A stretch of 64,000 nucleotides of DNA from Magnetococcales bacterium (GCA_002753565.1 PEAM01000003.1:9828-73827); one strand, 5' to 3'. Shown: positions 20,912-35,752, numbered from the stretch's first letter. Translations and numbers: made by a program. Notes: generated from the sequence alone by a model not told the origin.

Positions 20912-21285
20912 AAAATCCCTTTCACCTCCTCAACCTTCCCCCTGATGTGAGCGATGAGACGGTCGAAGCCGCCTATCAGCGCCTGATCACCCTCCATACA
21001 GCGCAGCACTCCACCCAGCGCCACCAGGAGATTGAATGGGCCTATCAAACCATCAAAGCCCAACGGGACCGTATTCGCTTTCAACTACTCGAGACCCCCA
21101 CAGCAGACATCCCCACCCTGCTTGGCCCGGCTTTAACAGAGCCAACCCCCGCCCCTCCAAACCAAGAGCAAACCTTGGCGGTCCTCTCTCACGCCCTGAA
21201 AACCTTTAAAATAGCCATGCCCGATTCAGCCAAACCGGCCCCGGTTTCCACTCAGCACTCCGCAGAGATTTCGGCAAAAAACTGA
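20908..21285 (+). CDS. J-domain-like protein lacking the HPD motif (125 aa)
   Basis: NPFHLLNLPPDVSDETVEAAYQRLITLHTAQHS...EIEWAYQTIKAQRDRIRF follows the J-domain pattern, but HPD is replaced by HTA. An ATGA overlap couples it to the upstream 792-aa gene. Confidence 0.5.
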   Translation: MKNPFHLLNLPPDVSDETVEAAYQRLITLHTAQHSTQRHQEIEWAYQTIKAQRDRIRFQLLETPTADIPTLLGPALTEPTPAPPNQEQTLAVLSHALKTFKIAMPDSAKPAPVSTQHSAEISAKN

Positions 21286-22571
21286 ACCATGTTCCGTCCC
21301 GCTGCCTTGGCGGCATAGAGGGCTTTGTCGGCATGTTTGGTCAACATTTCCATATTCTCTCCATCCTGGGGAAAGAGGGCAACACCGATGCTGGAGGTAA
21401 TGTTGACGGTATGCTCCGAGAGGAAAAAATCCGCTGCCAGGCTTTTAAGAATCTTCTCCGCCACCACATGAACCTGCTGCACACTCTCCACCTCGTTGAG
21501 AATCGCCGTAAACTCATCCCCGCCCAGGCGGGCGATGGTATCACTTTTTCTGATGCAGGTGATCAACCGTCTGGCCACCTCAATCAGGAGCAGGTCACCA
21601 ATATCGTGCCCCAAAGTATCGTTGACCTGTTTAAACCGATCCAGATCGAAAAACATGATCGCCATCCGTTTGTTATGGCGACGACTCATAGCCAGGGATT
21701 GATGGATACGGTCATAAAAAAGCTGTCGGTTGGGCAGGCCGGTCAAGACATCATGAAAGGCCAGATGTTTCAGCTTATCCTGCAACAGCCTTGCCTTGGT
21801 GATATCCCGGCCGATAAGCAGTATCTGATCAGACACTTTTCCCGGCACATCGATAGGGATGGTGATCACCTTGGTATAGCACTTTTCGTTGTGTTCATCT
21901 CGGCTGGAAAAGGTCTGATAGGCGGTCTCTCCTCCCCGCAACATCTCGATCAGGAGGGTTGTGTCATCGGCATCATTGCAGGGGTAGCAGGAGGCAGGCC
22001 CCTCTGCATGGTAAAGCTGGCTGCCCATCAGAGCTTTGCGTGTTTGACCAACCACCTTTAAAAAACTCTCATTGGCATCCACCACAGAGAGATCCTGTCG
22101 TTTGAGGACCACAATGGCATCTTCCATACTGTTGAGTACCGTATCGGAGAAGGCTTTGGCCCGTTTCAGATCTTCATTTTTCTTTTTGATGGAGAGAATA
22201 TGCTGCCGGGTCTCCAGAGCGATGCGGACGCGCGATTGCAGCTCCAAAGGGCGAATGGGTTTATGGATAAAGTCGACAGCACCCATTTCAAAACATTGAG
22301 AGATCAGCTTCTCTTCGGTCTCCCCAGTCACCATGATCACCGGTATTTCCGACAGGGTGGGATGGGACTTGAGGGCTTTGAGGAGGGTCAGTCCATCCAC
22401 ATCTGGCATATTGACATCCAGCAGGACCAGATCCGCCAAACGGGACTCCAACTTGGGAACCAGAAAACGGGACTCCATTAAAAAATCGGATGTATGGCCA
22501 CTATCGGCAATCAAGCGAGCTGTCTGTTCAACAACCTGACTATCATCATCCACCACCAAGATCTCTGCCAT
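21252..22571 (-). CDS. Response regulator (REC)-PAS-GGDEF diguanylate cyclase
   Basis: REC domain (ILVVDDD...LLDVNMPDVDG), a PAS-like middle and GGDEF (RLGGDEF). I prefer the ATG at 22571 (MAEILVVDD). Confidence 0.85.
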   Translation of the reverse strand: MAEILVVDDDSQVVEQTARLIADSGHTSDFLMESRFLVPKLESRLADLVLLDVNMPDVDGLTLLKALKSHPTLSEIPVIMVTGETEEKLISQCFEMGAVDFIHKPIRPLELQSRVRIALETRQHILSIKKKNEDLKRAKAFSDTVLNSMEDAIVVLKRQDLSVVDANESFLKVVGQTRKALMGSQLYHAEGPASCYPCNDADDTTLLIEMLRGGETAYQTFSSRDEHNEKCYTKVITIPIDVPGKVSDQILLIGRDITKARLLQDKLKHLAFHDVLTGLPNRQLFYDRIHQSLAMSRRHNKRMAIMFFDLDRFKQVNDTLGHDIGDLLLIEVARRLITCIRKSDTIARLGGDEFTAILNEVESVQQVHVVAEKILKSLAADFFLSEHTVNITSSIGVALFPQDGENMEMLTKHADKALYAAKAAGRNMVQFFAEISAEC

Positions 22572-22731
22572 AAGCGTACCCTTGCCATCCCCATCCAACC
22601 CAGGTTGAACCCAGAAACATCCGAATACTCGGGACAATTTAGCAGATGGCACCCCCTTTTCAAAGGAAGATGAAGAGCCGCCAACCTAACTTGAACAAGT
22701 TTACAGTGTAAAAGCTAGAACTAATCCCCAC

Positions 22732-23787
22732 TTAGCCAAAGTGGATTTTTGCCTCCAGGTTGGCCCGTGAGTCAGCGCTGTTTAAAGCCTCATCCAGGGT
22801 AATGGCCTCCTCTTGATAGAGAGCCAGCAGGGCGGCATCAAAGGATTGAACCCCTTTTTCACTGCTGGCGGCTATGGCCTCTTTCACCTCATCCACACTC
22901 CCTTGCAGAATTTTCTCGGCAATATGAGGGGTGTTGATCATCACCTCCACAGCAGCCCGACGTTTACCGTCTTGGCTGCGGACCAGCCGTTGGGAGAGAA
23001 TAGCACGCAGATAGAGCGAGAGGTCCATAAAGAGCTGTTGGTGTGACGCCTGGGGAAACATGTTGATGATGCGAGTCAAAGCCTGGTTGGCATTGTTGGC
23101 ATGGAGGGTAGAGATACAGAGATGACCGGTTCCAGCCAGCTCCAAAGCGGCCTCCATGGTCTCTCGATTACGGATCTCACCAATCAGAATCACATCCGGG
23201 GCCTCACGCAGACTGCTCTTCAAGGCGTTGGCGTAGGAGTGGGTATCCGGCCCCAGCTCCCGCTGGTTGATAAGAGATTTTTTGTGGGAGTGGAAAAACT
23301 CGACCGGATCTTCAATGGTAAGAATGTGCCCGCCCATCTGGCTGTTGCGGTGGTCTATCATGGCAGCCAGAGTGGTGGACTTACCCGACCCGGTCCCCCC
23401 CACCATCAGCAGCAGCCCCCGCTTGAGCAGGATCAGCTCTTTAAGAACCTCGGGCACCTTCAGGGAGTCGATGCTGGGAACCTGACTGCGGATATAGCGC
23501 AGCACCATGGCAGGAGAGCCTTTTTGGTAGAAGGCGTTAATCCGAAACCGTCCGGCCTCCCCCTGAGAGATGGCAAAATCGATCTCCCGATTTTGCTTGA
23601 AAAAGGCGATCTGGTCTGCATCCATAATCCCCAGCACCGCCCCCTCCACCTGCTCCTGGGAGAGCGAATCGCTGCCTACCGAAGCCATCTGACCATCGAT
23701 TTTCATCTTGGGGGAGGTGCCTGGTGTAAAATAGAGATCCGAGGCCTCTTTTTCGATCATCAATTTCAGATAAGGGGAGATATCCAT
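22732..23787 (-). CDS. pilU: PilT/PilU-family type IV pilus retraction ATPase, PilU-like
   Basis: Walker A GGTGSGKSTT and the PilU-type signature STLHANNANQALTRIINMFP. Confidence 0.8.
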   Translation of the reverse strand: MDISPYLKLMIEKEASDLYFTPGTSPKMKIDGQMASVGSDSLSQEQVEGAVLGIMDADQIAFFKQNREIDFAISQGEAGRFRINAFYQKGSPAMVLRYIRSQVPSIDSLKVPEVLKELILLKRGLLLMVGGTGSGKSTTLAAMIDHRNSQMGGHILTIEDPVEFFHSHKKSLINQRELGPDTHSYANALKSSLREAPDVILIGEIRNRETMEAALELAGTGHLCISTLHANNANQALTRIINMFPQASHQQLFMDLSLYLRAILSQRLVRSQDGKRRAAVEVMINTPHIAEKILQGSVDEVKEAIAASSEKGVQSFDAALLALYQEEAITLDEALNSADSRANLEAKIHFG

Positions 23788-23796
23788 ACGTTTTCT

Positions 23797-24957
23797 CTAC
23801 CCCTCCTCTTGAGAGACCAGGGACAGCCCATCCAGCCCCTGGGTTAAATCGGCCCCCTTGGCCTCTTTGCCCTCCAGCTTGATTTTCAGGCGCAACTCGT
23901 TGGCAGAGTCAGAGGAGCGCAGGGCATCTTCATAGGAGATCTGGTCGGATTCGTACAGATCGAACAGGGCCTGATCGAAGGTCTTCATGCCCAACTCGTT
24001 GGATTTTGCCATAATGGCTTTAATGCCAGAGACATCCCCCTTAAAAATCAGGTCGGAGATCAGAGGGGAGTTCAACATGATCTCCACCGCCGCCACCCGT
24101 CCCCCGCCTTTTTTCTTGAGCAGACGCTGAGAGACAATGGCGCGAAGGTTGAGAGAGAGGTCCATCAACAACTGCTGGCGTTTTTCGGAGGGGAACATGT
24201 TGATGATCCGGTCCAGAGCCTGGTTGGCGCTGTTGGCGTGGAGGGTGGAGAGGGCCAGATGTCCGGTTTCGGCAAAATTGATGGCATGCTCCATGGTCTC
24301 CTGCTCACGCACTTCACCGATTAAAATAACATCTGGCGCCTGACGCAGGGTATTCTTCAAGGCCGCCATCCAATCGGCCGTATCCACCCCCACCTCCCGC
24401 TGGGTGATCATACAGTTGACGTGGGGATGGACATACTCGATGGGATCTTCGATGGTGATGATGTGACCATGGGTCTCTTTGTTACGGACCCCCAACATAG
24501 AGGCCAGGGTGGTGGATTTTCCCGACCCGGTCCCCCCGACAACCAACACCAGACCGGTCTTGCTCAGCACCACCTCTTTTAAGATGGGTGGCAGATTCAT
24601 CTGGTCGAAGTCGGGAATGTCGGTGGTGATGGTCCTTAGCACCATGCCAGAGCTACCCTGCTGAACGAAGGCATTAACCCGGAACCGCCCCACCCCTTTG
24701 GGGTTGATGGCAAAGTTGCATTCAGAAGTGGCGTCAAACTCTTTAATCTGCCGATCATTCATGATAGACCGAACCAACATGCCGACATCTCGTGATGAGA
24801 GAGGCTGTTTGGTCAGCGCTGTCATCTTTCCGTCCAGTTTGGCGGCAGGGGGAAAATTGGCGGTAATGAAAAGATCCGATCCCCCCTGGTTTTTCATGGC
24901 TGTCAACGCATCCAACATAAACTTGATTGCCTGTTCCCGTTCCATAACAACTCCCAA
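23797..24957 (-). CDS. pilU: PilT/PilU-family type IV pilus retraction ATPase, PilU-like with a C-terminal extension
   Basis: GGSDLFITANFPPAAKLDGK, GGTGSGKSTT and STLHANSANQALDRIINMFP. It resembles P. aeruginosa PilU as I recall it. The start may be 24945. Confidence 0.8.
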   Translation of the reverse strand: MGVVMEREQAIKFMLDALTAMKNQGGSDLFITANFPPAAKLDGKMTALTKQPLSSRDVGMLVRSIMNDRQIKEFDATSECNFAINPKGVGRFRVNAFVQQGSSGMVLRTITTDIPDFDQMNLPPILKEVVLSKTGLVLVVGGTGSGKSTTLASMLGVRNKETHGHIITIEDPIEYVHPHVNCMITQREVGVDTADWMAALKNTLRQAPDVILIGEVREQETMEHAINFAETGHLALSTLHANSANQALDRIINMFPSEKRQQLLMDLSLNLRAIVSQRLLKKKGGGRVAAVEIMLNSPLISDLIFKGDVSGIKAIMAKSNELGMKTFDQALFDLYESDQISYEDALRSSDSANELRLKIKLEGKEAKGADLTQGLDGLSLVSQEEG

Positions 24958-25176
24958 CCCCCTGGTTATATTTTATCCGTTTCAAGATGCCACAACAGAG
25001 AATCAACCATTCCTCTCATTTTTTCCAGTTTAAAATACGATCCTCACCCCCGCCAACCCCCGCTTCTGTTGGTAAAAAAAAGGACAAAGGGCAAGAGACC
25101 CCTCCTCTACCCTCTCTAAGGTGTGTTAATATGTTGGGCTGAACCTTTATTGAAAATTAGCGCCAAGAGAGAAACA

Positions 25177-27246
25177 ATGAAAAATCTATGGTCAGAACAG
25201 GAGGCGGCAGCCTCACGCCAAAAATGGGCAGAGGGGAGCCAGAGTGCGCTGGCCCTGCGAATCTACAGCAGCCACCTCTTGGGTCAAAACCCCTCTTTGG
25301 TGCTCCATGGGGGCGGCAACTGCTCCCTCAAGAGCCAGCAAACCGACCTGCTGGGCCGACAGGTTCCGGCCCTGTTTGTCAAAGCCTCTGGTCACGACAT
25401 GGGCCACCTCACCCTGGCTGGTCTGCCGGGTTTAAAGCTGGCGGGACTGCAAGAGCTGCAGGCCCTCAAGAACTTGGACGACCTTGCCATGGTCAACCAA
25501 CTGCGCAGCCACCTGTTTGATGCCGACGCCCCAACCCCCTCCATCGAGGCCCTGCTCCACGCTTTTCTACCGCCTCGCTTTATCGACCACAGCCATGCCG
25601 ACGCCATCCTTACCCTGAGCAACCAGACAAACGGCGCCCAGTTGCTACGGCAGGCTCTGGGAGATCAGGTGATCATTCTCCCCTATGTTCACCCTGGCTT
25701 TGCTCTGGCAAAAGCGGCAGCCGAAGCCTTTGCCGCCCAGCCCACCGCCCACGGCATGGTGCTGATGCAACACGGCCTGATCACCTGGGGAGAAGAGGCC
25801 CGCACCAGCTATGATCGCCACATCGAGCTGGTCACCCTGGCAGAGAACGCCATCCAGAAGCAGATCGGAACGCCCCCCACCCTGCCAAAAATTGACCTGC
25901 AAGAGGCTAAAAAACGCTACCGGGCGATCGCCCCTCAACTTCGGGGTGGGTTATCCATCCCCAGCCAGCAGCCGGGCCGCCCCAGGAAACGTTTTATCCT
26001 ACGCCCCCTCATTCAGCCCGAAAGCCTGGCTATGGTGGGGGATGAGCAGTCTCAGGAGCAGCTCCTGACCCCACCACTCACCTCGGACCATCTCATCCGC
26101 ACCAAACCTCTTGGCGTCTGGATTGAGAACAGCCGGCTGATCCCCCTGGCCCTATCGGCCTATCGGGAGGCCTATCTTGCCTATGTCAACCGGTACGCCA
26201 GGCCCGACCAGACACCCTACGACAGCTCGCCACGGGTGCTGTTTCTGCCCGGTATCGGGGCGGTTTGCGCCGGAGAGAGTGCTGACAAGGCCACGGTTGT
26301 CCGGGATATTACCCGCCAGACCATCCAGGTGAAAAGCCAGATTGCCGCCATGGGCACCTACAAAGGACTCTCGGAGTCTCAACTGTTTGAGATGGAGTAC
26401 CATCCCCTGCAACAGGCCAAGATGGAGCGGCAGTCCAGCCCGGCTTTAGAGGGGTCCGTTGCGGTTATTACCGGGGCAGCGGGTGCCATCGGTGCGGGCA
26501 TCTGCCGGGAGCTGCTCCAACAGGGTTGTCATGTGGCGGCTACCGACCTGGCCGGAGAGCCCCTTAACGCTCTGGTAGCCGAACTGGCTGCCGACCATCC
26601 GGGCCGGGTTGTAGCGGTTGCCATGGATGTCACCAGCCCCGAGGGGGTCCACGAGGCCTTTGGGCAAATAATCGATACCTGGGGTGGGGTGGATCTGGTG
26701 GTCATCAACGCTGGTCTGGCCCACGTCTCCTCTCTGGAAGAGATGAGTATGGAGGCTTTTCAGCGGCTGCAACGGGTCAATGTCGAGGGCACCTTGAATC
26801 TATTCTCCGAAACCGGGCGACTGCTGAAAAAACAGGGCAGCGGCGGAGATGTGGTTCTTATCTCCACCAAAAATGTCTTTGCACCCGGCGCCAATTTTGG
26901 TGCCTACAGCGCCACCAAAGCTGCCGCCCATCAGCTGGCCCGCATTGCCAGCCTGGAGATGGCCGCCATGGATGTTCGGGTTAACATGGTGGCCCCGGAT
27001 GCGGTTTTTTCGGAGGGAAGTCGCAAATCGGGCCTCTGGGCTGAGGTGGGGCCGGACCGCATGAAAGCTCGAGGGCTGGATGAGGCGGGTCTGGAGGCCT
27101 ATTATCAAAACCGCAATCTGCTCAAATCGGCGGTTACCGCCCGCCATGTTGCCAATGCGGTACTCTATTTTGCAACCCGACAAAGCCCCACAACCGGTGC
27201 CACCCTGCCGGTTGATGGTGGTCTGCCGGACGCCACACCCCGCTGA
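25177..27246 (+). CDS. Bifunctional class II aldolase/adducin-domain plus short-chain dehydrogenase (rhamnulose-1-phosphate aldolase/alcohol dehydrogenase-like)
   Basis: About 690 aa. The C-terminal SDR has VITGAAGAIG and YSATKAA, and the N-terminal half is aldolase-like. I prefer the ATG at 25177. Confidence 0.75.
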   Translation: MKNLWSEQEAAASRQKWAEGSQSALALRIYSSHLLGQNPSLVLHGGGNCSLKSQQTDLLGRQVPALFVKASGHDMGHLTLAGLPGLKLAGLQELQALKNLDDLAMVNQLRSHLFDADAPTPSIEALLHAFLPPRFIDHSHADAILTLSNQTNGAQLLRQALGDQVIILPYVHPGFALAKAAAEAFAAQPTAHGMVLMQHGLITWGEEARTSYDRHIELVTLAENAIQKQIGTPPTLPKIDLQEAKKRYRAIAPQLRGGLSIPSQQPGRPRKRFILRPLIQPESLAMVGDEQSQEQLLTPPLTSDHLIRTKPLGVWIENSRLIPLALSAYREAYLAYVNRYARPDQTPYDSSPRVLFLPGIGAVCAGESADKATVVRDITRQTIQVKSQIAAMGTYKGLSESQLFEMEYHPLQQAKMERQSSPALEGSVAVITGAAGAIGAGICRELLQQGCHVAATDLAGEPLNALVAELAADHPGRVVAVAMDVTSPEGVHEAFGQIIDTWGGVDLVVINAGLAHVSSLEEMSMEAFQRLQRVNVEGTLNLFSETGRLLKKQGSGGDVVLISTKNVFAPGANFGAYSATKAAAHQLARIASLEMAAMDVRVNMVAPDAVFSEGSRKSGLWAEVGPDRMKARGLDEAGLEAYYQNRNLLKSAVTARHVANAVLYFATRQSPTTGATLPVDGGLPDATPR

Positions 27247-27266: not shown

Positions 27267-30200
27267 ATGCTGCCAAGCCACCCGGACGCCCGACGCTTCC
27301 TAGAGATGAAACTGTTCCATCATCTCTCCCACTTTCGAGCGTTGGAACATCGACTGCGCGCCTTACCGGAAGAGAGCGACAGAGAGTCTGCCTTTGCCCT
27401 GTTTGCCGAAGGTCTACTGACCATCCAAACCCTACCCCAAGCCACGGATGTTCTGCCTCAAGGGTCGTTAACCGCCGAGATTCGCCACCGACTATCTCTG
27501 CCAGAGGGCAGCCCGGCCCCCCAGGGGTATCTGCGTACCACAACCGGAGAGACCTACCCCTATTTTCTCCACTACACCCCTCAACGTACCCCCCTCACCA
27601 GCCAAGAGCTGGCACCGTTTGTTCAACTGATGCAAAACAGCCATCAGCCTCTGCTGTTTTCCAACGGGGCTGACCTGCCAAAAGCTCTGCACAAACAAGC
27701 GGGGTTTTGGCGTATTCTGGCGCCAGATCTTGACCGACTGACCGAGACAGACTTTAACAATTTTAATCGCTGGCTTCGGGGCGGTGGCATCACCCCTACC
27801 CGCAGCACCCCCACGGCCAGCCAAACCGAAAGACTGAATCAAATCCGCTCCATCACAACTCCACGGGCCATACTGGTCCCCCCACTGGGTGCCGAGGTGT
27901 GGCAGACAGCGCGTCATCTGCTGGAAAATATGGGCAGCCAACGCATTGGCCTGGTTATTCTCCCCTCCCAAAATCAAGTGCGAGAGCTGATCCACTTTTG
28001 GCGCAGGGAGAGCAGCTGGTCCACCCTTACCCCGCTGGTTGTCCTTCAGGGAACCGGCAAAACCAAACCGGCCGATCTAGACTATCCCATCACCCGCTCT
28101 CTGGCTGGGCTGCGCCATTTCTTTCATTGCCGGGTATCGAGCGGCACCAAGGTGATCTTGGGTACTGACGAACTGCTGCCACTGGTTCAGCGAGCCATTC
28201 TCGGCTTTCCCCCCATCGAAATGGCCTTGATTCTCGAAGCCCACAGACTGGAGACCCCTCAAGGAGAGAGCCTGAAAAAGAGCTTTTCAGAGAAGAGACT
28301 TCCCATTCAAAAACTTTTTTTCATCAGCTCCACCCCCCAGCGGATGAACCCCTTAAAGCCAAACAGAGAGGGTGAGATTCAACCACTCTACTCTTTTGGC
28401 AACCCCGAGCAGTATGGCCCGACGGTCTCTCTGGGCACCCTTCCGGCGGCTATCCAGAAAAAGAGCATCCGCCCTTGGAAAGTTCTGCTGCCCCTGGTTA
28501 TGGGTGAGCAAAACCATCCGGCCGCTCTGGCCCTCTGTGTTGATAAAAAGCCAACCGTGCGCCACATCCACACCCGTCATGCTTCGGCAAAAGAGGCCCA
28601 GGCTTTCGCCCAGGGGTGGTTGGAGAGCAGGCCGGAGAGCCTGAACCTTTTTACCCCCTTCTGTCTGGAGGGGCAAAAAGGTGCGGCGCAACTCGACCAG
28701 ACAATCGGCGACTATCACCACAGCTCTCACGCTTTACTCTCTCTGATCAACACCCCCGAGTTCGGCTTTGGCCTGCCCCAGGCCGACCTGATCTATTTTG
28801 TCCAAGGGGCCAGACGAGAAGAGCCTCACACCTTCCACCCGGTTCTCTCTCCACGCCAAGGGGAGCAGTCCGGGCTGATCGCCATTGCCCTTTTTCTTCC
28901 CACTCTTTCAGCCAGCCAACCACCCCAAGAGGGTTGGCTGGCAGCTCTGGACCGGTGTGACGACCTCTGGCTCTCTCTACAACTGTTTCGGGAGCAAGAT
29001 ACCACCTTTGCCGAGGAGCTGCGAACCATCCGCATCAACTGGGGTCGAACCGGGCGGTGGGAGTTGGAGCCGTTATCCCAGTGGCTGGAGCCTCTCTATG
29101 AGTTGGAGCCTGACCCCAAGATGACCCAGGCCATCCTGATCCACTGCACCCGAAGGCTCACCACCCTCTGGGATGAACGCTTTGGTCAACTGCTCGCCTT
29201 CCGAGACCGGTACAACCACTGTGAGATTCCTCCCCGCTGGGCCGACAACCCCGAACTGAGCCTCTGGGCGGAGCAGCAGCGTAAAACTCGCTACCAAGGT
29301 CGTTTGAGTGCCGATCGAATCAAAGAACTGGAAGAGATTGGCTTTATCTGGGACCCCAAAAAAGCTGCTTGGGAGAAACAGTTCAAAAACCTTCTGCTCT
29401 ATCGCTCCCAGCACCAACACTGCAAAGTACCCAAAGGGTGGACAGAAAACCCGGAGCTGGCGGACTGGGTTATTCAACAACGAAGAGCTTTCCAAAGTGG
29501 ACGACTGGAGCCGGAGTGGTCTCAACGTCTGGATGAGGTGGGGTTTGTCTGGGATCTGGAGGTGGAGGCGTGGGAGAGCGGCTTTGCCACCTTGAAAAAA
29601 TTTCGTCACCTGCATGGACATGCCCAGGTTCCCAAAGAGTACCCACAAAACCCCTCCCTGGGTGAGTGGGCAGAGAGCCAACGCCGGCAGGAGAAGAGCG
29701 GCAGGCTGGCCCCTGAACGGATTGAGCGACTGGATGGCCTCGGCTTTATCTGGAACTTGGAAGAGGCGGCTTGGGAGGAGCGTTTTCAACTGTATGAACG
29801 CTATCGTCAACTCCACGGTCACGGCAAGGTGCCGGACCGGGATAAAAACCTGCCCAAACTCTCCGACTGGGCCGCTGCCCAGCGTAAGGAGCAGGCCCGT
29901 GGCACCCTGGACCCCAGCCGAGAACAGCGTCTGAACGATGCAGGCTTTGTCTGGGACCTGGAAGCCACCGCCTGGGAAGAGGCGTTTGTCCGACTGAAAA
30001 GCTATAAGATCCAACATAACCACTGCACCCTCCCCGATAAAGGGCTTCCTGCGGGGTCTTTGGAGCAGAGCCTGAGCCAATGGTGTCAGGAGCAGCGTGC
30101 CTTGCGCCGTCGTGGTCGTCTGCATCCAACCCGCATCAACCGCCTGACAGCCCTGGGCTTTTGTTGGGACCTTAAAATAGCTGAGTGGGAAGCGATGTTT

Positions 30201-31382
30201 GCTGACTTTCTCTTTTTCAAACGGTGCCAGGGTCACGGCAAACTCCCAGACAGCTACAGGCCGAACCCTCTTCTGGGACAGTGGGCCAAAACCCAGCGTC
30301 GAGAGCGAACCATGGGCAAGCTGGACACAGAACGAGAGGGGCGACTGGAGGAGGCTGGCTTTGTTTGGGACCTGGAAGCGGCTGCTTGGGATGAGGGGTT
30401 CGAAAAACTGTGCCGCTACCACCAAAAAGAGGGCCATTTCAACCTGCCTCTCAAGCTGAAATCGGACCCTGACCTACCGCTGTGGGTGAAAAAACAGCGT
30501 AGTCTCTACAACAAAAAAAGCCTGAAGAGCTCCCGCAGAGAGCGGCTGGAGAAGATCGGCTTTGTCTGGGATATCCGCGAGGCCGCCTGGGAGGAGATGT
30601 TCCACGCCCTAGCCCAATTTACCCAGAGCCGTAACCACTGCATCGTACCGGCCAAATGGCCAGAGAATCCCCGTCTGGCTCAGTGGGTCAACAATCTACG
30701 TCGAGACTACAAAAAAGGTGTTTTACCCCAGGATAAGGTTGACCGCCTGACCAAGCTGGGCTTTCTTTGGGATGCCAAGGCGGTCTTTTGGGAGGAGATG
30801 TTTGCCGCCCTGACGGAATATCGGGATAGAAATGGCGACTGTCTGGTGCCGGAGAGCTACACAGAGAACAGTGAACTGGGTTGGTGGGTCTCCACCCAAC
30901 GCAAGGCCAACCTCTCTGGTCAACTAGACCAAGCACGGGTTCAGCGCCTGGATGCCCTCGAGTTTATCTGGGATATCGAAGACGCCAACTGGCTGGAGAT
31001 GTATCGGCAACTTTTTATTTTCGCTCAGAAAAACGGTCACTGCATCATCTCAAAATCCCGACCGGAAACCCTGCTTCTGGCCTCTTGGGCAGATGCTCAG
31101 CGTCAGGCTAAAGAGCAAGGAAAACTCTCGCAAGATAAGATCAACCGCCTCTCTGAGCTTCAGTTTATCTGGGATGCCAAACAGGTTGTCGTGGAGAAGA
31201 TGCTGATGGTTCTGCGTCGTTTTAAAGAGGAGCATGGCCATTGCAATGTGCCGATACAGGGGTCAAACTATTCTCAACTGGGTCTCTGGATTCAATTTCA
31301 GCGACAATCCTACCAAAAGGGGACTCTGGACCCACTCCGACAGCAAAAGCTTGAAGAGATGGGCATCTCTATGGATGGCTGA
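27267..31382 (+). CDS. Helicase-like N-terminal region (motifs apparently degenerate) plus 11 tandem helicase-associated (HA) domain repeats, 1371 aa
   Basis: The C-terminal 740 aa are repeats of the pattern W-E-x-x-F-x(5)-[FY]-x(4)-GH-x-x-[VI]P-x(7-11)-L-x-x-W-x(3)-QR-x(5)-G-x-L-x(3)-R-x(3)-L-x(3)-GF-x-WD. The N-terminus has SF2-like strings (IGLVILPSQNQVRELI, ALILEAHRL) but no clean Walker A in the expected place. Confidence 0.8.
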   Translation: MLPSHPDARRFLEMKLFHHLSHFRALEHRLRALPEESDRESAFALFAEGLLTIQTLPQATDVLPQGSLTAEIRHRLSLPEGSPAPQGYLRTTTGETYPYFLHYTPQRTPLTSQELAPFVQLMQNSHQPLLFSNGADLPKALHKQAGFWRILAPDLDRLTETDFNNFNRWLRGGGITPTRSTPTASQTERLNQIRSITTPRAILVPPLGAEVWQTARHLLENMGSQRIGLVILPSQNQVRELIHFWRRESSWSTLTPLVVLQGTGKTKPADLDYPITRSLAGLRHFFHCRVSSGTKVILGTDELLPLVQRAILGFPPIEMALILEAHRLETPQGESLKKSFSEKRLPIQKLFFISSTPQRMNPLKPNREGEIQPLYSFGNPEQYGPTVSLGTLPAAIQKKSIRPWKVLLPLVMGEQNHPAALALCVDKKPTVRHIHTRHASAKEAQAFAQGWLESRPESLNLFTPFCLEGQKGAAQLDQTIGDYHHSSHALLSLINTPEFGFGLPQADLIYFVQGARREEPHTFHPVLSPRQGEQSGLIAIALFLPTLSASQPPQEGWLAALDRCDDLWLSLQLFREQDTTFAEELRTIRINWGRTGRWELEPLSQWLEPLYELEPDPKMTQAILIHCTRRLTTLWDERFGQLLAFRDRYNHCEIPPRWADNPELSLWAEQQRKTRYQGRLSADRIKELEEIGFIWDPKKAAWEKQFKNLLLYRSQHQHCKVPKGWTENPELADWVIQQRRAFQSGRLEPEWSQRLDEVGFVWDLEVEAWESGFATLKKFRHLHGHAQVPKEYPQNPSLGEWAESQRRQEKSGRLAPERIERLDGLGFIWNLEEAAWEERFQLYERYRQLHGHGKVPDRDKNLPKLSDWAAAQRKEQARGTLDPSREQRLNDAGFVWDLEATAWEEAFVRLKSYKIQHNHCTLPDKGLPAGSLEQSLSQWCQEQRALRRRGRLHPTRINRLTALGFCWDLKIAEWEAMFADFLFFKRCQGHGKLPDSYRPNPLLGQWAKTQRRERTMGKLDTEREGRLEEAGFVWDLEAAAWDEGFEKLCRYHQKEGHFNLPLKLKSDPDLPLWVKKQRSLYNKKSLKSSRRERLEKIGFVWDIREAAWEEMFHALAQFTQSRNHCIVPAKWPENPRLAQWVNNLRRDYKKGVLPQDKVDRLTKLGFLWDAKAVFWEEMFAALTEYRDRNGDCLVPESYTENSELGWWVSTQRKANLSGQLDQARVQRLDALEFIWDIEDANWLEMYRQLFIFAQKNGHCIISKSRPETLLLASWADAQRQAKEQGKLSQDKINRLSELQFIWDAKQVVVEKMLMVLRRFKEEHGHCNVPIQGSNYSQLGLWIQFQRQSYQKGTLDPLRQQKLEEMGISMDG
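29169..31379 (+). repeat. Tandem coding repeat array: 11 HA-domain units, period 201 nt (one unit of 213 nt)
   Basis: The first codon (W/V) of each unit falls at 29169, 29370, 29571, 29772, 29973, 30186, 30387, 30588, 30789, 30990 and 31191. Confidence 0.9.
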
Positions 31383-31403: not shown

Positions 31404-31898
31404 ATGGCGCGAACCGACCCAAACAAGCCAACCACGGTCCGATTTTACCAGCTGGGACTCTCTTCCCTGGAGGCGGCGGTGACGGGTATTCTCACCAAAG
31501 CCTGGGAAAAAGGGATGAGAGCCACCCTGCTCACCCCTGGTCCCGATCCTACCCGCTATTGGGATAGCCTCTTGTGGCGTACACCGGCAGACAATTTTCT
31601 ACCCCACGGCCCGGATAACGGACCCGACCCGGACCGACAGCCGATCCTGATCGCCTCCAGCTTGAACGATCAAAATGGGGCCACCCTGGTGGTTCTGGCC
31701 ACCCCCCAACTGATCGAAGAGCCGGCAAACTACGATATGGTGGTGGACTTTGTCGATGGCAGCAGTCAGGAGGATTTGGCCGCCAGTCGCAAACGATATA
31801 AACAGTATCGAGAGTTGGGGTGTCATCTGGAGTATTGGGTTCAGGAACCAAACAGAGGCTGGAGCCTGAAAAACAGCACAGAGGCCACTCAGGGGTGA
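31404..31898 (+). CDS. holC: DNA polymerase III chi subunit
   Basis: VRFYQL..., KAWEKGMRATLL and LLWRTPADNFLPHG match the chi-subunit pattern. It starts 21 nt after the HA-repeat gene. Confidence 0.7.
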   Translation: MARTDPNKPTTVRFYQLGLSSLEAAVTGILTKAWEKGMRATLLTPGPDPTRYWDSLLWRTPADNFLPHGPDNGPDPDRQPILIASSLNDQNGATLVVLATPQLIEEPANYDMVVDFVDGSSQEDLAASRKRYKQYRELGCHLEYWVQEPNRGWSLKNSTEATQG

Positions 31899-33708: not shown

Positions 33709-34137
33709 TTTCATCTCCTTGACAAACAGACCGACAAGAGTCAAACAAAAAACGGGCCAGATAAGACCATCCAGGCTCTACTGTCGATCTGTTGGTTTTT
33801 TTGCGTGTTCTTAAAAAGTGTGCAGATACGCTCTGCCAGGCGTTAAGGTGAATCAGATAGTCGCCGCTACCGCGGCAGCAGCAGGGCGAGGGATAGGGTG
33901 CCACCCAAAAAAAGAAGGGGAAGAGAGGCCGCCTGAAGAGAGGCGCTATGACATTTAACGTTCGCCACTTGGGAAATGGTCCCTAACGATGGTAAGATGT
34001 CCGAAAATAAAAAAACGATCACAGGCCCCCAAAAAAACAGGCCATCAAAACTATTAGCAAAACCGGTACCTGTTGGTAAAGTATTTTTTTCTTTTTTAGC
34101 AAAACACCATCTTCAACTACCCCAAAGGAGGGTATCA

Positions 34138-34449
34138 ATGAGTAGGGTAAAAGCTTCTGTTTGTTGGCACTGTAAAGAGGTTCTATCCCCTGATCTGGGT
34201 CGAGGTTCCATCTGTTCTGGCTGCAAAAAAGATTCCCGAGTCTGTCTAAACTGCCGTTTTTATGACGCCCACTCCTATAATGAGTGCCATGAGAGTCAGG
34301 CAGAGCGGGTTATGAACAAGGAAAACGGTAACTTTTGTGACTATTTTTCCATCAATAAAGCCTCGGTCTCCTCCTCAAGAAAACAGTCCCGAAAACGGCC
34401 CACCAGCAAAACGGCCGCCCTCCAAGCGGCAGAAGCCCTCTTCAAGTGA
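34138..34449 (+). CDS. Cys-rich zinc-ribbon-like small protein (103 aa)
   Basis: ATG at 34138 is preceded by AAGGAGG (34125-34131). The Cys pattern is CWHC-x14-CSGC-x6-CLNC-x10-C-x17-C. Confidence 0.55.
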   Translation: MSRVKASVCWHCKEVLSPDLGRGSICSGCKKDSRVCLNCRFYDAHSYNECHESQAERVMNKENGNFCDYFSINKASVSSSRKQSRKRPTSKTAALQAAEALFK

Positions 34450-34477
34450 GGAGCCCATCTCAACAAGCTCCCCATCC

Positions 34478-35752
34478 GTGACCTCCCAACCCAAAACCGG
34501 TTTCACCTGCTATCAGGTGGGCGGCTCGGTGCGAGACCAACTGTTGGGCATTCCCAGCCAAGATCGGGACTGGGTGGTGGTAGGAGAGTCACCTCAGACA
34601 CTGCTCAACCTGGGTTACCAACAGGTCGGGGCCGATTTTCCGGTTTTTCTCCACCCCCTCACCTCTGAAGAGTACGCCCTGGCCCGCACCGAAAGAAAAA
34701 CCGGACCGGGTTATCGGGGGTTCTCCGTCTTGAGTGGGCCAGAGGTAACCCTGGAAGAGGATCTTATCCGTCGGGATCTGACCATCAACGCCATGGCCTT
34801 GGATTGTCAGGGGCGACTGATCGACCCCTTTGGTGGTGAGGCCGACTTAAATAGCCGTACCCTTCGCCACGTCTCTTCCGCCTTTGCCGAAGACCCCCTG
34901 CGGGTGGTTCGGGTGGCCCGTTTCATGGCCCGTTTTGCTCCTTTGGGTTTTACCATCGCCCCAGAGACTCAAACCCTTATGGGTCAGTTAGCCAACTCGG
35001 GCGCCCTGCAAGAGCTAACCCCAGAGCGGGTCTGGATGGAGACCCATAAAGCCCTGCTCTCCCCCTCACCCAGCCTATTTTTTAAAACCCTGCACCACAC
35101 CCATGCCCTCCAGGAGATCTTCCCAGAGTTAGCCGCCCTGGTTGGACAAGAGCAGGTGGCCAAATATCACCCTGAGGGGGATGCCTGGGAACACACTCTT
35201 CTCAGCCTGGAGGCCGCAACACAACTGAGTGACAAGCCAGAGATCCGCCTGGCGGCCCTGCTGCACGATTTAGGCAAAGGGCTAACCCCAGCCGAACAGC
35301 TTCCCCACCACTGCGGCCATGAAGCGTACGGTGCCAGAGAGGTTGCCTCCCTCTGTCAAAGACTGAAGATACCCAAATCATTTAAAAAACTGGCAACCAT
35401 GACCGCCCGACACCATCTGCACTGCCACCGCCTGCAAGAGATGCGGCCCAACCGCATTGTCAAACTGCTCAACCAGTTGGATGGTTTCAGAAATCCTCAG
35501 GGGATTGATGCCTTTGTTTTGGCCTGTACGGCCGATAAATGGGGCCGGGGAGCCAAGAGCAGGCACACCCCCTATCGAGAGGGGGAGCTGTTAAAAAGAT
35601 GTCTGGCTGCCTGCCAAAAAATTGATAACAGCCTCTTTTCAGCGGCTGGTTTACAGGGAAAAGCCTTCGGAGAGGCTCTCCATCACGCTCGAGTCAAGAC
35701 GGTAAACTCAATTAACAAACGATCACTTTCAACCCAACCCGAAGATAAATAG
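34478..35752 (+). CDS. cca: CCA-adding tRNA nucleotidyltransferase with an HD phosphohydrolase domain
   Basis: YQVGGSVRDQLLG, DRDWVVVG, RRDLTINAM and the HD region LLHDLGK. The start is uncertain. GTG at 34478 gives a normal N-terminus, whereas the track ATG at 34337 overlaps the upstream gene by 113 nt. Confidence 0.85.
   Translation: MTSQPKTGFTCYQVGGSVRDQLLGIPSQDRDWVVVGESPQTLLNLGYQQVGADFPVFLHPLTSEEYALARTERKTGPGYRGFSVLSGPEVTLEEDLIRRDLTINAMALDCQGRLIDPFGGEADLNSRTLRHVSSAFAEDPLRVVRVARFMARFAPLGFTIAPETQTLMGQLANSGALQELTPERVWMETHKALLSPSPSLFFKTLHHTHALQEIFPELAALVGQEQVAKYHPEGDAWEHTLLSLEAATQLSDKPEIRLAALLHDLGKGLTPAEQLPHHCGHEAYGAREVASLCQRLKIPKSFKKLATMTARHHLHCHRLQEMRPNRIVKLLNQLDGFRNPQGIDAFVLACTADKWGRGAKSRHTPYREGELLKRCLAACQKIDNSLFSAAGLQGKAFGEALHHARVKTVNSINKRSLSTQPEDK

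What the first reader, a model, noticed from the sequence alone, without database searches (positions are those of the whole stretch)
27267..31382. 1371-aa protein with 11 head-to-tail helicase-associated (HA) domains on a strict 201-nt period, behind an apparently dead helicase-like core, in an operon with holC
Repeat units start at 29169 and recur every 201 nt, with one 213-nt unit, up to the stop codon. Each unit has the HA-domain signature (GH.xVP ... LxxW.xxQR.....G.L...R...L...GF.WD). HA domains normally occur once or a few times at the C-terminus of helicases, and their function is unknown. An 11-mer array is extreme. The N-terminal 630 aa retain helicase-like strand motifs. Where Walker A should be, the sequence reads ILVPPLGAEVW, and DEAH reads LEAH. 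A stray GTGKT occurs out of order. The gene lies 20 nt downstream of an aldolase/SDR gene and 21 nt upstream of the DNA polymerase III chi gene, which hints at a replication or SSB-linked role. The units are diverged at the DNA level, so the array is old and under selection rather than a recent expansion.
Basis: partly seen in the sequence, partly recalled or inferred. Interest (0 to 1): 0.55.

Follow-up and report, generated by a model that had tools for sequence, protein, structure and literature searches.

The report
Dead restriction-type helicase with HA repeats
This gene encodes a bacterial protein descended from a DNA-cutting, DNA-tracking restriction-type enzyme that has lost all its catalytic residues but keeps a fixed chain of eleven small "helicase-associated" modules; the protein is conserved throughout the magnetotactic order Magnetococcales, so it appears to be a defence-type enzyme put to a new, non-enzymatic use.

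Summary
There is a 1371-aa ORF (27267..31382, +) with 11 Pfam HA domains on a 67-aa (201-nt) period, one 71-aa unit, and short gaps to an aldolase/SDR gene and to holC.

- The N-terminal 630 aa are a dead enzyme core. They are homologous to the Mrr-nuclease + SF2-translocase module of Type ISP restriction enzymes (LlaBIII: HMM E=4e-27; Foldseek E=1e-23, TM 0.70). Both the nuclease motifs and ATPase motifs I, II, III, V and VI are destroyed.
- An 11-unit HA array is not extreme. The parent family (Mrr–SF2–HA×n, thousands of members, common on plasmids) carries 0–15 units, and the number changes quickly between close relatives.
- The dead form is a monophyletic clade found only in Magnetococcales. 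It is under purifying selection (dN/dS about 0.2), and its array of 10–12 units stays in the same order between orthologues.
- The holC link holds only in the nearest relative. The order-wide link is the aldolase/SDR gene directly upstream (11 of 11 genomes).

Most likely function (inferred): an ATP-independent DNA-binding or scaffold protein. Novelty: a new variant of a known kind. Interest is moderate.

The parts
25123..27246 (+). Bifunctional class II aldolase / short-chain dehydrogenase gene. It is the partner conserved across the whole order, directly upstream on the same strand.
   Evidence: NCBIfam NF006194 equivalog, 851 bits against a cut-off of 686. Pfam Aldolase_II + adh_short. It lies upstream of the HA gene in all 11 distinct Magnetococcales genomes that have upstream DNA.
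27267..31382 (+). The whole gene: a 1371-aa catalytically dead Type ISP-like nuclease/translocase fused to an array of 11 HA domains.
27267..27806 (+). aa 1-180: domain derived from an Mrr-type (PD-(D/E)xK) nuclease, with the catalytic motifs lost. GDAFEVF is now ESAFALF (27384-27404). D.GVDG is now APQGY (27516-27530). YQVKFR is now YFLHYT (27561-27578).
   Evidence: Active relatives match Pfam Mrr_cat_2. Alignment. The Foldseek alignment to full-length LlaBIII spans 681 columns, against 469 to the nuclease-deleted LlaGI. dN/dS is 0.12-0.15 in orthologue pairs.
27807..28451 (+). aa 181-395: RecA-like lobe 1 with degenerate motifs. Motif I is PLGAEVW (27882-27902), motif Ic is replaced (28161-28175), motif II is ILEAHRL (28230-28250) and motif III is SSTPQ (28326-28340). 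Motif Ia LPS is retained (27960-27974).
   Evidence: Alignments. The model places strand 200-204, a loop, then helix 211-220 at the P-loop position. HMM hit to LlaBIII residues 180-656.
28050..28064 (+). Stray GTGKT (aa 262-266). It is out of register with motif I and is not conserved in orthologues.
   Evidence: P0001 and P0002 read SQPSKLK and TDFAKLK at this position. pLDDT is below 50 over 265-270.
28452..28922 (+). aa 396-552: RecA-like lobe 2. Motif V is PEFGFGLP (28755-28778). The arginine motif of motif VI is absent (28833-28862).
   Evidence: Alignment. The query has no Pfam Helicase_C hit even at E<=10. Two dead-clade relatives keep weak Helicase_C hits.
28923..29153 (+). aa 553-629: helical linker (LW.SLQLFREQD...GRTG) that joins the core to the array. 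It aligns with the region just after the ATPase in LlaBIII.
   Evidence: Helices 553-632 in the model. The alignment to LlaBIII runs to residue 656. Family consensus.
29154..31376 (+). aa 630-1370: 11 head-to-tail HA domains. Units start at 29154, 29355, 29556, 29757, 29958 (the 213-nt unit), 30171, 30372, 30573, 30774, 30975 and 31176.
   Evidence: Pfam HA in 11 stretches. Unit table. PDB 2KTA hit at E=1.4e-5. Positional orthology. dN/dS 0.10-0.16.
30573..30974 (+). HA units 8 and 9 (aa 1103-1236), the best-conserved part of the protein across the order. Unit 9 is acidic (net -5).
   Evidence: 54-72% identity to the positional counterparts in distant orthologues, against about 36% background. 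dN/dS 0.05-0.13. Charge.
31404..31898 (+). holC (DNA polymerase III chi), 21 nt downstream. This adjacency is specific to the lineage and is not a conserved part of the unit.
   Evidence: PF04364, E=4.5e-28. Downstream only in the window and L013. Absent downstream in L003, L004, L006, L009 and L015.

Best explanation
What it is (shown): a Magnetococcales-specific, vertically inherited, catalytically dead derivative of a widespread single-chain family. That family is built as Mrr-type nuclease, then SF2 (ResIII/Helicase_C) translocase, then an array of HA domains. Its nuclease+motor half is homologous to that of the Type ISP restriction enzymes LlaGI and LlaBIII. The HA array occupies the position where those enzymes have their methyltransferase and target-recognition domains.

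In this clade the nuclease D...QxK residues and helicase motifs I, II, III, V and VI are all replaced. The protein therefore cannot hydrolyse ATP, translocate or cut DNA. The fold, the ex-nuclease domain and especially the HA array are nevertheless kept by purifying selection, and the array is fixed at 10-12 units that stay in the same order between orthologues.

How it most likely works (inferred): it is an ATP-independent DNA-binding or scaffold protein. The 11 three-helix HA modules form an extended binding platform. The inert nuclease/RecA core serves as a static structural or DNA-clamping body. The protein is co-expressed with the aldolase/SDR gene that always precedes it.
For: Ancestry:
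- The N-terminal profile finds 932 clusters.
- Active relatives have Mrr_cat_2 + ResIII/DEAD + Helicase_C + 7-15 HA domains.
- Active relatives match the PADLOC Type IIG/ISP model PDLC03597 at E=1e-85 to 1e-92, over profile positions 18-655.
- The dead-clade profile alone hits LlaBIII (4xqk) at E=3.6e-27 and LlaGI (5ffj) at E=4.4e-27.
- The AF2 model (pLDDT 82.9) matches LlaBIII at E=1.3e-23, TM 0.70.

Loss of activity:
- Motif-by-motif table for 150 family members.
- The query has no Pfam, NCBIfam or PADLOC hit outside the HA domains.

The clade:
- Monophyletic, 14 of 14 members together in an NJ tree.
- All 9 genome loci and all named members are Magnetococcales.

Selection:
- dN/dS is 0.17-0.20 overall, 0.30-0.36 in the RecA lobes, 0.12-0.15 in the ex-nuclease domain, 0.10-0.16 in the array and 0.05-0.13 in units 8-9.
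- Units are collinear between orthologues.
- Active relatives with at least 75% N-terminal identity vary from 2 to 10 units.

DNA binding by HA:
- NMR structure 2KTA matches a unit at E=1.4e-5.
- Its paper title says the structure indicates DNA binding. PMC12191111 cites HA domains as binding DNA and describes PLD nucleases fused to HA domains.
- A Tn7 preprint reports TniQ proteins that carry HA domains.

Context:
- Aldolase/SDR is upstream in 11 of 11 genomes.
- The neighbours in the window are housekeeping genes, not a defence island.
Against: - No binding, ATPase or nuclease assay exists for this protein or any family member. The DNA-binding role of HA domains rests on one NMR study that I could not read.
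- The array is only mildly basic (net +10 over 741 aa). The best-conserved unit, unit 9, is acidic. That fits protein binding at least as well as DNA binding.
- dS values are 0.9-1.9 and partly saturated, so the dN/dS figures are approximate.
- Loss of activity is inferred from sequence motifs only.
- The reason for the coupling to the aldolase/SDR gene is unknown.
Confidence: 0.6

Rival explanations
1. The HA array is a protein-protein scaffold or regulator, not a DNA binder. Individual units, with positions fixed across the order, each dock a specific partner. One partner could be the co-encoded aldolase/SDR enzyme. The dead core is only a platform.
For: - Unit identity is position-specific and conserved across the order.
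- The best-conserved unit is acidic, net -5.
- The gene is invariably paired with the aldolase/SDR gene while all other neighbours change.
Against: - HA domains are fused to DNA enzymes: helicases and PLD nucleases. TniQ-HA fusions are also reported.
- The only structural study concludes that the domain binds DNA.
- In this family the array takes the place of the DNA-recognition half of Type ISP enzymes (PMC4666363).
Confidence: 0.2
2. One reading: a replication- or SSB-linked factor that works with DNA polymerase III chi, co-transcribed with holC.
For: - There is a 21-nt gap to holC on the same strand, and no terminator-like site in that gap.
- holC is also downstream in the closest full-length relative.
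Against: - In that relative the gap is 228 nt, and the whole block (pilT-like, aldolase, HA gene, holC, leuA, cca) is simply collinear with the window.
- holC is not downstream in L003, L004, L006, L009 or L015. tblastn finds nothing even at E<=10, and Pfam shows an SDR, a histidine kinase, a T2SS protein G and unknown proteins there.
- The C-terminus (GISMDG) does not resemble an acidic SSB tail (the SSB tail motif is from my own knowledge).
Confidence: 0.07
3. It is still an active helicase or ATPase that uses non-canonical residues, possibly the displaced GTGKT.
For: - GTGKT equals the core of the family's own motif I (PMC2790903).
- The glutamate of DEAH is retained as LEAH.
- The RecA fold is preserved.
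Against: - GTGKT lies about 55 aa away from the P-loop position, in a low-confidence loop. It is absent from the closest orthologues.
- The Walker B aspartate, motif III, motif V and the arginines of motif VI are all missing.
- The RecA lobes are the least constrained region, dN/dS 0.30-0.36.
Confidence: 0.03
4. It is a decaying relic: a former defence gene on its way to becoming a pseudogene.
For: - All catalytic motifs are lost.
- The query gives no HMM hits to helicase families.
Against: - The ORF is intact at 1371 aa.
- Intact orthologues occur in at least 11 genomes spanning the order, at 28-50% identity.
- dN/dS is about 0.2, with 0.05-0.16 in the array.
- Unit order is conserved.
- Synteny is conserved.
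Confidence: 0.02
5. It is a non-catalytic partner, sensor or decoy for an active paralogue or another defence system encoded elsewhere in the genome.
For: - The parent family looks like a defence or mobile-element family. It matches the PADLOC Type IIG/ISP model, occurs on 575 plasmid records, and has WYL-regulator or FtsK/deaminase neighbours.
Against: - There is no paralogue in the 64-kb window.
- The neighbours are housekeeping genes.
- Vertical inheritance with stable synteny is unlike a defence island.
- A fixed array contrasts with the fast-changing arrays of active members.
Confidence: 0.06

Closest known systems
[quoted passage not shown]
   Same: - Same N-terminal module in the same order: Mrr-family nuclease (residues 1-165 in LlaGI), then an SF2 helicase-like ATPase, then a helical connector.
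- Dead-clade HMM E=3.6e-27. Foldseek E=1.3e-23, TM 0.70.
- Active relatives share the 'GTGKT' form of Walker A (PMC2790903).
   Different: - There is no methyltransferase and no target-recognition domain. An HA array sits in their place.
- The nuclease and ATPase catalytic residues are all lost, so the translocation-collision cleavage mechanism (PMC3553950, PMC4666363) cannot operate.
- The gene is chromosomal, vertically inherited and in a housekeeping context. The Lactococcus enzymes are plasmid-borne defence genes.
Active 'Helicase associated domain protein' / 'DEAD/DEAH box helicase' family (Mrr_cat_2 - ResIII/DEAD - Helicase_C - HA x n), for example P0006, P0008, P0010 and the Rhodococcus and Pseudomonas plasmid genes
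   Same: - Homologous along the full length. Profile E=1e-60 to 1e-76. tblastn shows 29% identity over about 1470 aa to P0010.
- Same domain order.
- The HA array runs to the C-terminus on the same 67-aa period.
   Different: - Active members keep every nuclease and ATPase motif.
- Their HA number changes quickly, from 2 to 10 among relatives with at least 75% N-terminal identity.
- They occur in many phyla and on plasmids, in variable contexts with no aldolase/SDR partner.
- Their function has not been tested experimentally, as far as the searched literature shows.
HA domain, Pfam PF03457; NMR structure of BVU_0683(627-691) from Bacteroides vulgatus (PDB 2KTA)
   Same: - Each of the 11 units matches the Pfam model.
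- Unit 3 aligns to 2KTA at E=1.4e-5, including the W...QR...G.L...R...L...GF.W signature.
   Different: - 2KTA is a single isolated domain.
- Here 11 units are joined without linkers and each has its own conserved identity.
- One unit is acidic.

Membership tests
Pfam HA (PF03457) | Match to the HA profile above the gathering score (28.4 bits) | tested here: met
   581.9 bits, E=3.3e-179, 11 stretches.
SF2 helicase / translocase (ResIII-DEAD + Helicase_C) | Two RecA-like lobes (the fold) | tested here: met
   AF2 model with pLDDT 82.9. Foldseek hits LlaBIII, LlaGI, RadD, CSB and ISWI with probability 1.00. HMM hit to LlaBIII at E=3.6e-27.
SF2 helicase / translocase (ResIII-DEAD + Helicase_C) | Motif I (Walker A, GxGK[ST]) at the P-loop position | tested here: not met
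   PLGAEVW where the family has ACGTGKT.
SF2 helicase / translocase (ResIII-DEAD + Helicase_C) | Motif II (Walker B, DExH) | tested here: not met
   ILEAHRL where the family has FDEAHKT. The aspartate is lost.
SF2 helicase / translocase (ResIII-DEAD + Helicase_C) | Motifs III, V and VI (TATPR; LTEGVDVP; QxxGRxxR arginine finger) | tested here: not met
   SSTPQ, PEFGFGLP, and motif VI replaced by FHPVLSPRQG.
SF2 helicase / translocase (ResIII-DEAD + Helicase_C) | Match to the Pfam ResIII, DEAD or Helicase_C profiles | tested here: not met
   No hit for aa 1-634 even at E<=10. Active relatives hit all three profiles.
Type ISP restriction-modification enzyme | Mrr-family nuclease domain with catalytic D...(E/Q)xK | tested here: not met
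   The fold region is present, but GVDG is now PQGY and YQVK is now YFLH. No Mrr_cat_2 hit.
Type ISP restriction-modification enzyme | Gamma-class adenine methyltransferase and target-recognition domain C-terminal to the motor | tested here: not met
   The C-terminal 741 aa consist only of HA domains. There is no methyltransferase Pfam hit. Active relatives match only positions 18-655 of the 1646-position PADLOC profile.
Mrr-SF2-HA 'Helicase associated domain protein' family | Full-length homology and the domain order nuclease-like, RecA1, RecA2, helical linker, HA array to the C-terminus | tested here: met
Mrr-SF2-HA 'Helicase associated domain protein' family | Conserved catalytic motifs of the nuclease and the ATPase | tested here: not met
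   Lost in the query and in the whole monophyletic Magnetococcales clade. It is therefore filed as a dead sub-clade, not as a working member.
holC (chi) operon / replisome accessory factor | Conserved linkage with holC across orthologues | tested here: not met
   Linked in 2 of 7 informative loci.
holC (chi) operon / replisome accessory factor | Physical interaction with chi, psi or SSB | not testable with these tools
   Requires pull-down or two-hybrid experiments.

The most novel reading that the evidence does not exclude
HA arrays may be a modular, position-specific recognition device, comparable in logic to TALE or PUF repeats. In the active Mrr-SF2-HA enzymes this device would replace the methyltransferase and target-recognition half of Type ISP restriction enzymes, and it would evolve fast by gaining and losing units. 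In Magnetococcales one such array became fixed, the enzyme core was switched off, and the protein was recruited as a dedicated reader of a conserved chromosomal DNA target, or of a fixed set of partners, tied functionally to the aldolase/SDR gene.
Probability: 0.1. Interest if true: 0.8.

Novelty: new variant of a known kind. Interest (0 to 1): 0.42.

Why it matters
HA domains are common and are annotated only by association. The large Mrr–SF2–HA family has no tested function.

This locus shows a natural separation of function. Across a whole bacterial order, selection has discarded the nuclease and motor chemistry but kept the HA array, unit by unit, together with the ex-nuclease domain. That points to the array as the part that carries function. 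It also provides a clean, enzyme-free protein for asking what HA arrays bind.

The contrast between fast-changing arrays in active, often plasmid-borne relatives and a fixed array here is the pattern expected if the array is the specificity module of a defence-type enzyme that has been put to a new use. The invariant pairing with an aldolase/SDR gene is an unexplained lead that can be tested.

Tried and rejected
- Single-sequence searches of aa 1-634 against Pfam at E<=10, NCBIfam and PDB sequences found nothing. Homology appeared only with the exhaustive profile search.
- Two word-index searches returned only one partial orthologue. The second was effectively wasted.
- Exact look-up of the query protein found no record.
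- The first AF2 run, with a 2-sequence alignment, was unusable (pLDDT 39.7). The 11-sequence alignment gave pLDDT 82.9.
- Tandem Repeats Finder does not see the array at DNA level.
- I suspected that an active paralogue (P0006) shared a contig with a dead copy, because both contigs are 20,888 bp long. They are different records, so the match was a coincidence.
- The AFDB fold library was unavailable.
- The Mills 2013 HA-domain paper is not held in the library.
- P0175 could not be located on a contig.
- Rfam found nothing in the window.
- The promoter and terminator scan was not informative: 15 terminator-like sites against 9.4±3.2 expected, and none in the intergenic gaps.
- The 'pseudogene' and 'active non-canonical helicase' readings were considered and rejected, on dN/dS and on the motif evidence.

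Full report
**1. Observation**

The ORF 27267..31382 (+) encodes 1371 aa. Pfam finds only the HA domain (PF03457), in 11 stretches, with whole-protein E=3.3e-179.

The GF.WD anchors are 67 aa apart, with one 71-aa spacing at unit 5. The last unit ends one residue before the stop codon. Units share on average 36% aa and 48% nt identity, and Tandem Repeats Finder does not detect the array.

The upstream gene (25123..27246) is a bifunctional class II aldolase/SDR (NF006194, above its cut-off). The downstream gene (31404..31898) is holC. The gaps are 20 and 21 nt. Every factual element of the finding is correct.

**2. What the N-terminal 630 aa are**

On its own, this region matches nothing in Pfam (E<=10), NCBIfam or the PDB sequence set.

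An exhaustive HMMER search with a two-sequence profile found 932 clusters, 84 of them at E<=1e-30. Most are 1000-1700 aa long. Pfam scans of these relatives give Mrr_cat_2 (a PD-(D/E)xK nuclease), ResIII/DEAD and Helicase_C, followed by 7, 12 or 15 HA domains.

Active relatives match PADLOC's Type IIG/ISP restriction-enzyme model at E=1e-85 to 1e-92. The match covers only profile positions ~18-655 of 1646, which is the nuclease+motor half.

A profile built only from the dead clade hits LlaBIII (4xqk, E=3.6e-27) and LlaGI (5ffj, E=4.4e-27).

An AF2 model from an 11-sequence alignment (pLDDT 82.9, pTM 0.72) has LlaBIII as its top Foldseek hit (E=1.3e-23, TM 0.70 normalised to the query, 681 aligned columns). 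The nuclease-deleted LlaGI structure aligns over 469 columns.

Type ISP enzymes are single chains made of an Mrr nuclease, an SF2 helicase-like ATPase, a coupler, a methyltransferase and a target-recognition domain (PMC4666363). In this family the HA array takes the place of the last two.

**3. The core is dead in two ways**

Motifs in the active family consensus and in this protein:

| Motif | Active consensus | This protein |
|---|---|---|
| Nuclease helix | GDAFEVF | ESAFALF |
| Nuclease D | D.GVDG | PQGY |
| Nuclease QxK | YQVKFR | YFLHYT |
| Helicase I | MACGTGKT | VPPLGAEV |
| Helicase Ia | LPSLAL | LPS retained |
| Helicase Ic | TYQS | replaced |
| Helicase II | FDEAHKT | ILEAHRL |
| Helicase III | TATPR | SSTPQ |
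| Helicase V | LTEGVDVP | PEFGFGLP |
| Helicase VI | QATGRAMR | absent |

In the model, the degenerate motif I sits exactly at the strand-loop-helix P-loop position.

The stray GTGKT (aa 262-266) equals the family's motif I core. However, it lies about 55 aa away from that position, in a low-confidence loop, and the two closest orthologues lack it.

**4. The dead form is a clade, not an accident**

About 17 of the 150 best clusters share the degenerate motifs. They are monophyletic in an NJ tree, 14 of 14.

All 9 loci recovered from species-representative genomes are Magnetococcales. All named cluster members are too: Magnetococcus sp. PR-3, Magnetococcus sp. DMHC-6, Ca. Magnetaquiglobus and several MAGs. 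NCBI calls them 'helicase associated domain-containing protein'.

**5. Selection**

Nei-Gojobori dN/dS was computed on three orthologue pairs:

| Region | dN/dS |
|---|---|
| Whole gene | 0.17-0.20 |
| RecA lobes | 0.30-0.36 |
| Ex-nuclease domain | 0.12-0.15 |
| HA array | 0.10-0.16 |
| HA units 8-9 | 0.05-0.13 |

dS is 0.9-1.9, so these values are approximate. The gene is clearly functional, and the array and the N-terminal domain are its most constrained parts.

**6. The array is not extreme, but it is fixed**

Active full-length relatives have 0-15 HA units, with a median of 5. Seven of 80 have 10 or more. Pfam confirms 15 units in P0008 and 12 in P0010.

Among relatives of P0006 with at least 75% N-terminal identity, the number ranges from 2 to 10, with a mode of 6. 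Protein lengths form a ladder with a 67-aa step. So arrays in active members gain and lose units quickly.

The dead clade keeps 10-12 units on the same strict period in the full-length orthologues with DNA, even at only 28-50% N-terminal identity. Clade-wide the median is 10 and the range 5-13.

Units are orthologous by position. Against P0002, every unit pairs with its counterpart at 60-84% identity, over a 36% background. Units 8, 9 and 11 remain identifiable in distant orthologues. Units 8 and 9 are 54-72% identical to their counterparts, well above the 28-30% identity of the core.

Unit 9 is acidic, net -5. The array as a whole is mildly basic, net +10.

**7. Context**

The aldolase/SDR gene lies directly upstream, on the same strand and 8-139 nt away, in all 11 distinct genomes that have upstream DNA. 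The other neighbours differ between genomes.

holC is downstream only in the window and in the closest full-length relative. There the gap is 228 nt, and the whole block (pilT-like ×2, aldolase, HA gene, holC, leuA, cca) is collinear with the window.

Five other loci have an SDR, a hybrid histidine kinase, T2SS protein G or unknown genes downstream. tblastn finds no holC there even at E<=10.

Active relatives are solitary genes in variable contexts (WYL regulator; FtsK/DUF87 plus a deaminase) and have no aldolase partner. They are frequent on plasmids: 575 records, mainly Streptomyces, Pseudomonas and Rhodococcus.

The window neighbourhood consists of housekeeping genes. It contains no paralogue and no Rfam hit.

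**8. Mechanism**

Shown: the ancestry, the loss of catalytic motifs, the restriction of the clade to Magnetococcales, purifying selection, collinearity of the array, and the aldolase synteny.

Inferred: the protein acts without ATP as a DNA-binding or scaffold protein whose working part is the HA array. This rests on the following.
- The NMR structure 2KTA, whose paper title says it indicates DNA binding, cited as such in PMC12191111.
- Fusion of HA domains to DNA enzymes such as PLD nucleases. TniQ-HA fusions are also reported.
- The array's position in place of the Type ISP recognition half.

The acidic but conserved unit 9 and the aldolase pairing keep a protein-scaffold alternative open.

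**9. Novelty and verdict**

The HA domain, the Mrr–SF2–HA architecture and long HA arrays are already in the databases, although I found no paper describing the architecture.

What is new is an order-wide, selected, doubly inactivated derivative with a fixed array and a fixed metabolic-gene partner. That makes it a new variant of a known kind.

Interest is moderate, 0.42.

Noticed in passing
window 29073..30437 (- strand): A 454-aa ORF runs antisense through HA units 1-7. It has no Pfam hit. It is probably a stop-free frame produced by the periodic repeat and not a gene.
   Followed up: partly
window 28050..28064: GTGKT, identical to the family's own Walker A core, occurs about 55 aa downstream of the real P-loop position. 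The closest orthologues lack it. It is either chance or a lineage-specific oddity.
   Followed up: yes
window 22732..24957 (- strand) and 21252..22652 (- strand): Two tandem PilT-like T2SSE ATPase genes and a response-regulator/PAS/GGDEF gene lie upstream, on the opposite strand. The same trio is found in the two closest relatives (L001, L013) but not in more distant Magnetococcales.
   Followed up: partly
L015 4833..7861 (Magnetococcus sp. PR-3): In this genome a DeoC-family aldolase gene directly precedes the aldolase/SDR + HA gene pair. This may hint that the conserved partner belongs to a sugar-phosphate pathway.
   Followed up: no
L001 / L002, L005, L007, L010 (Magnetococcales MAG contigs): Several MAG contigs end inside or right after the HA array. 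The diverged repeats still seem to break short-read assemblies, so orthologues are often annotated as partial.
   Followed up: no
window 33976..34449 (+): A 157-aa cysteine-rich ORF (several CxxC pairs) with no Pfam hit overlaps the predicted GTG start region of the CCA-adding enzyme gene (34337..35752). The true start of one of the two genes is uncertain.
   Followed up: no
L009 4320..8361: The orthologue in this MAG appears split. A 375-aa N-terminal ORF is followed by a separate 878-aa ORF that carries the array. This may be a frameshift or an assembly error.
   Followed up: no
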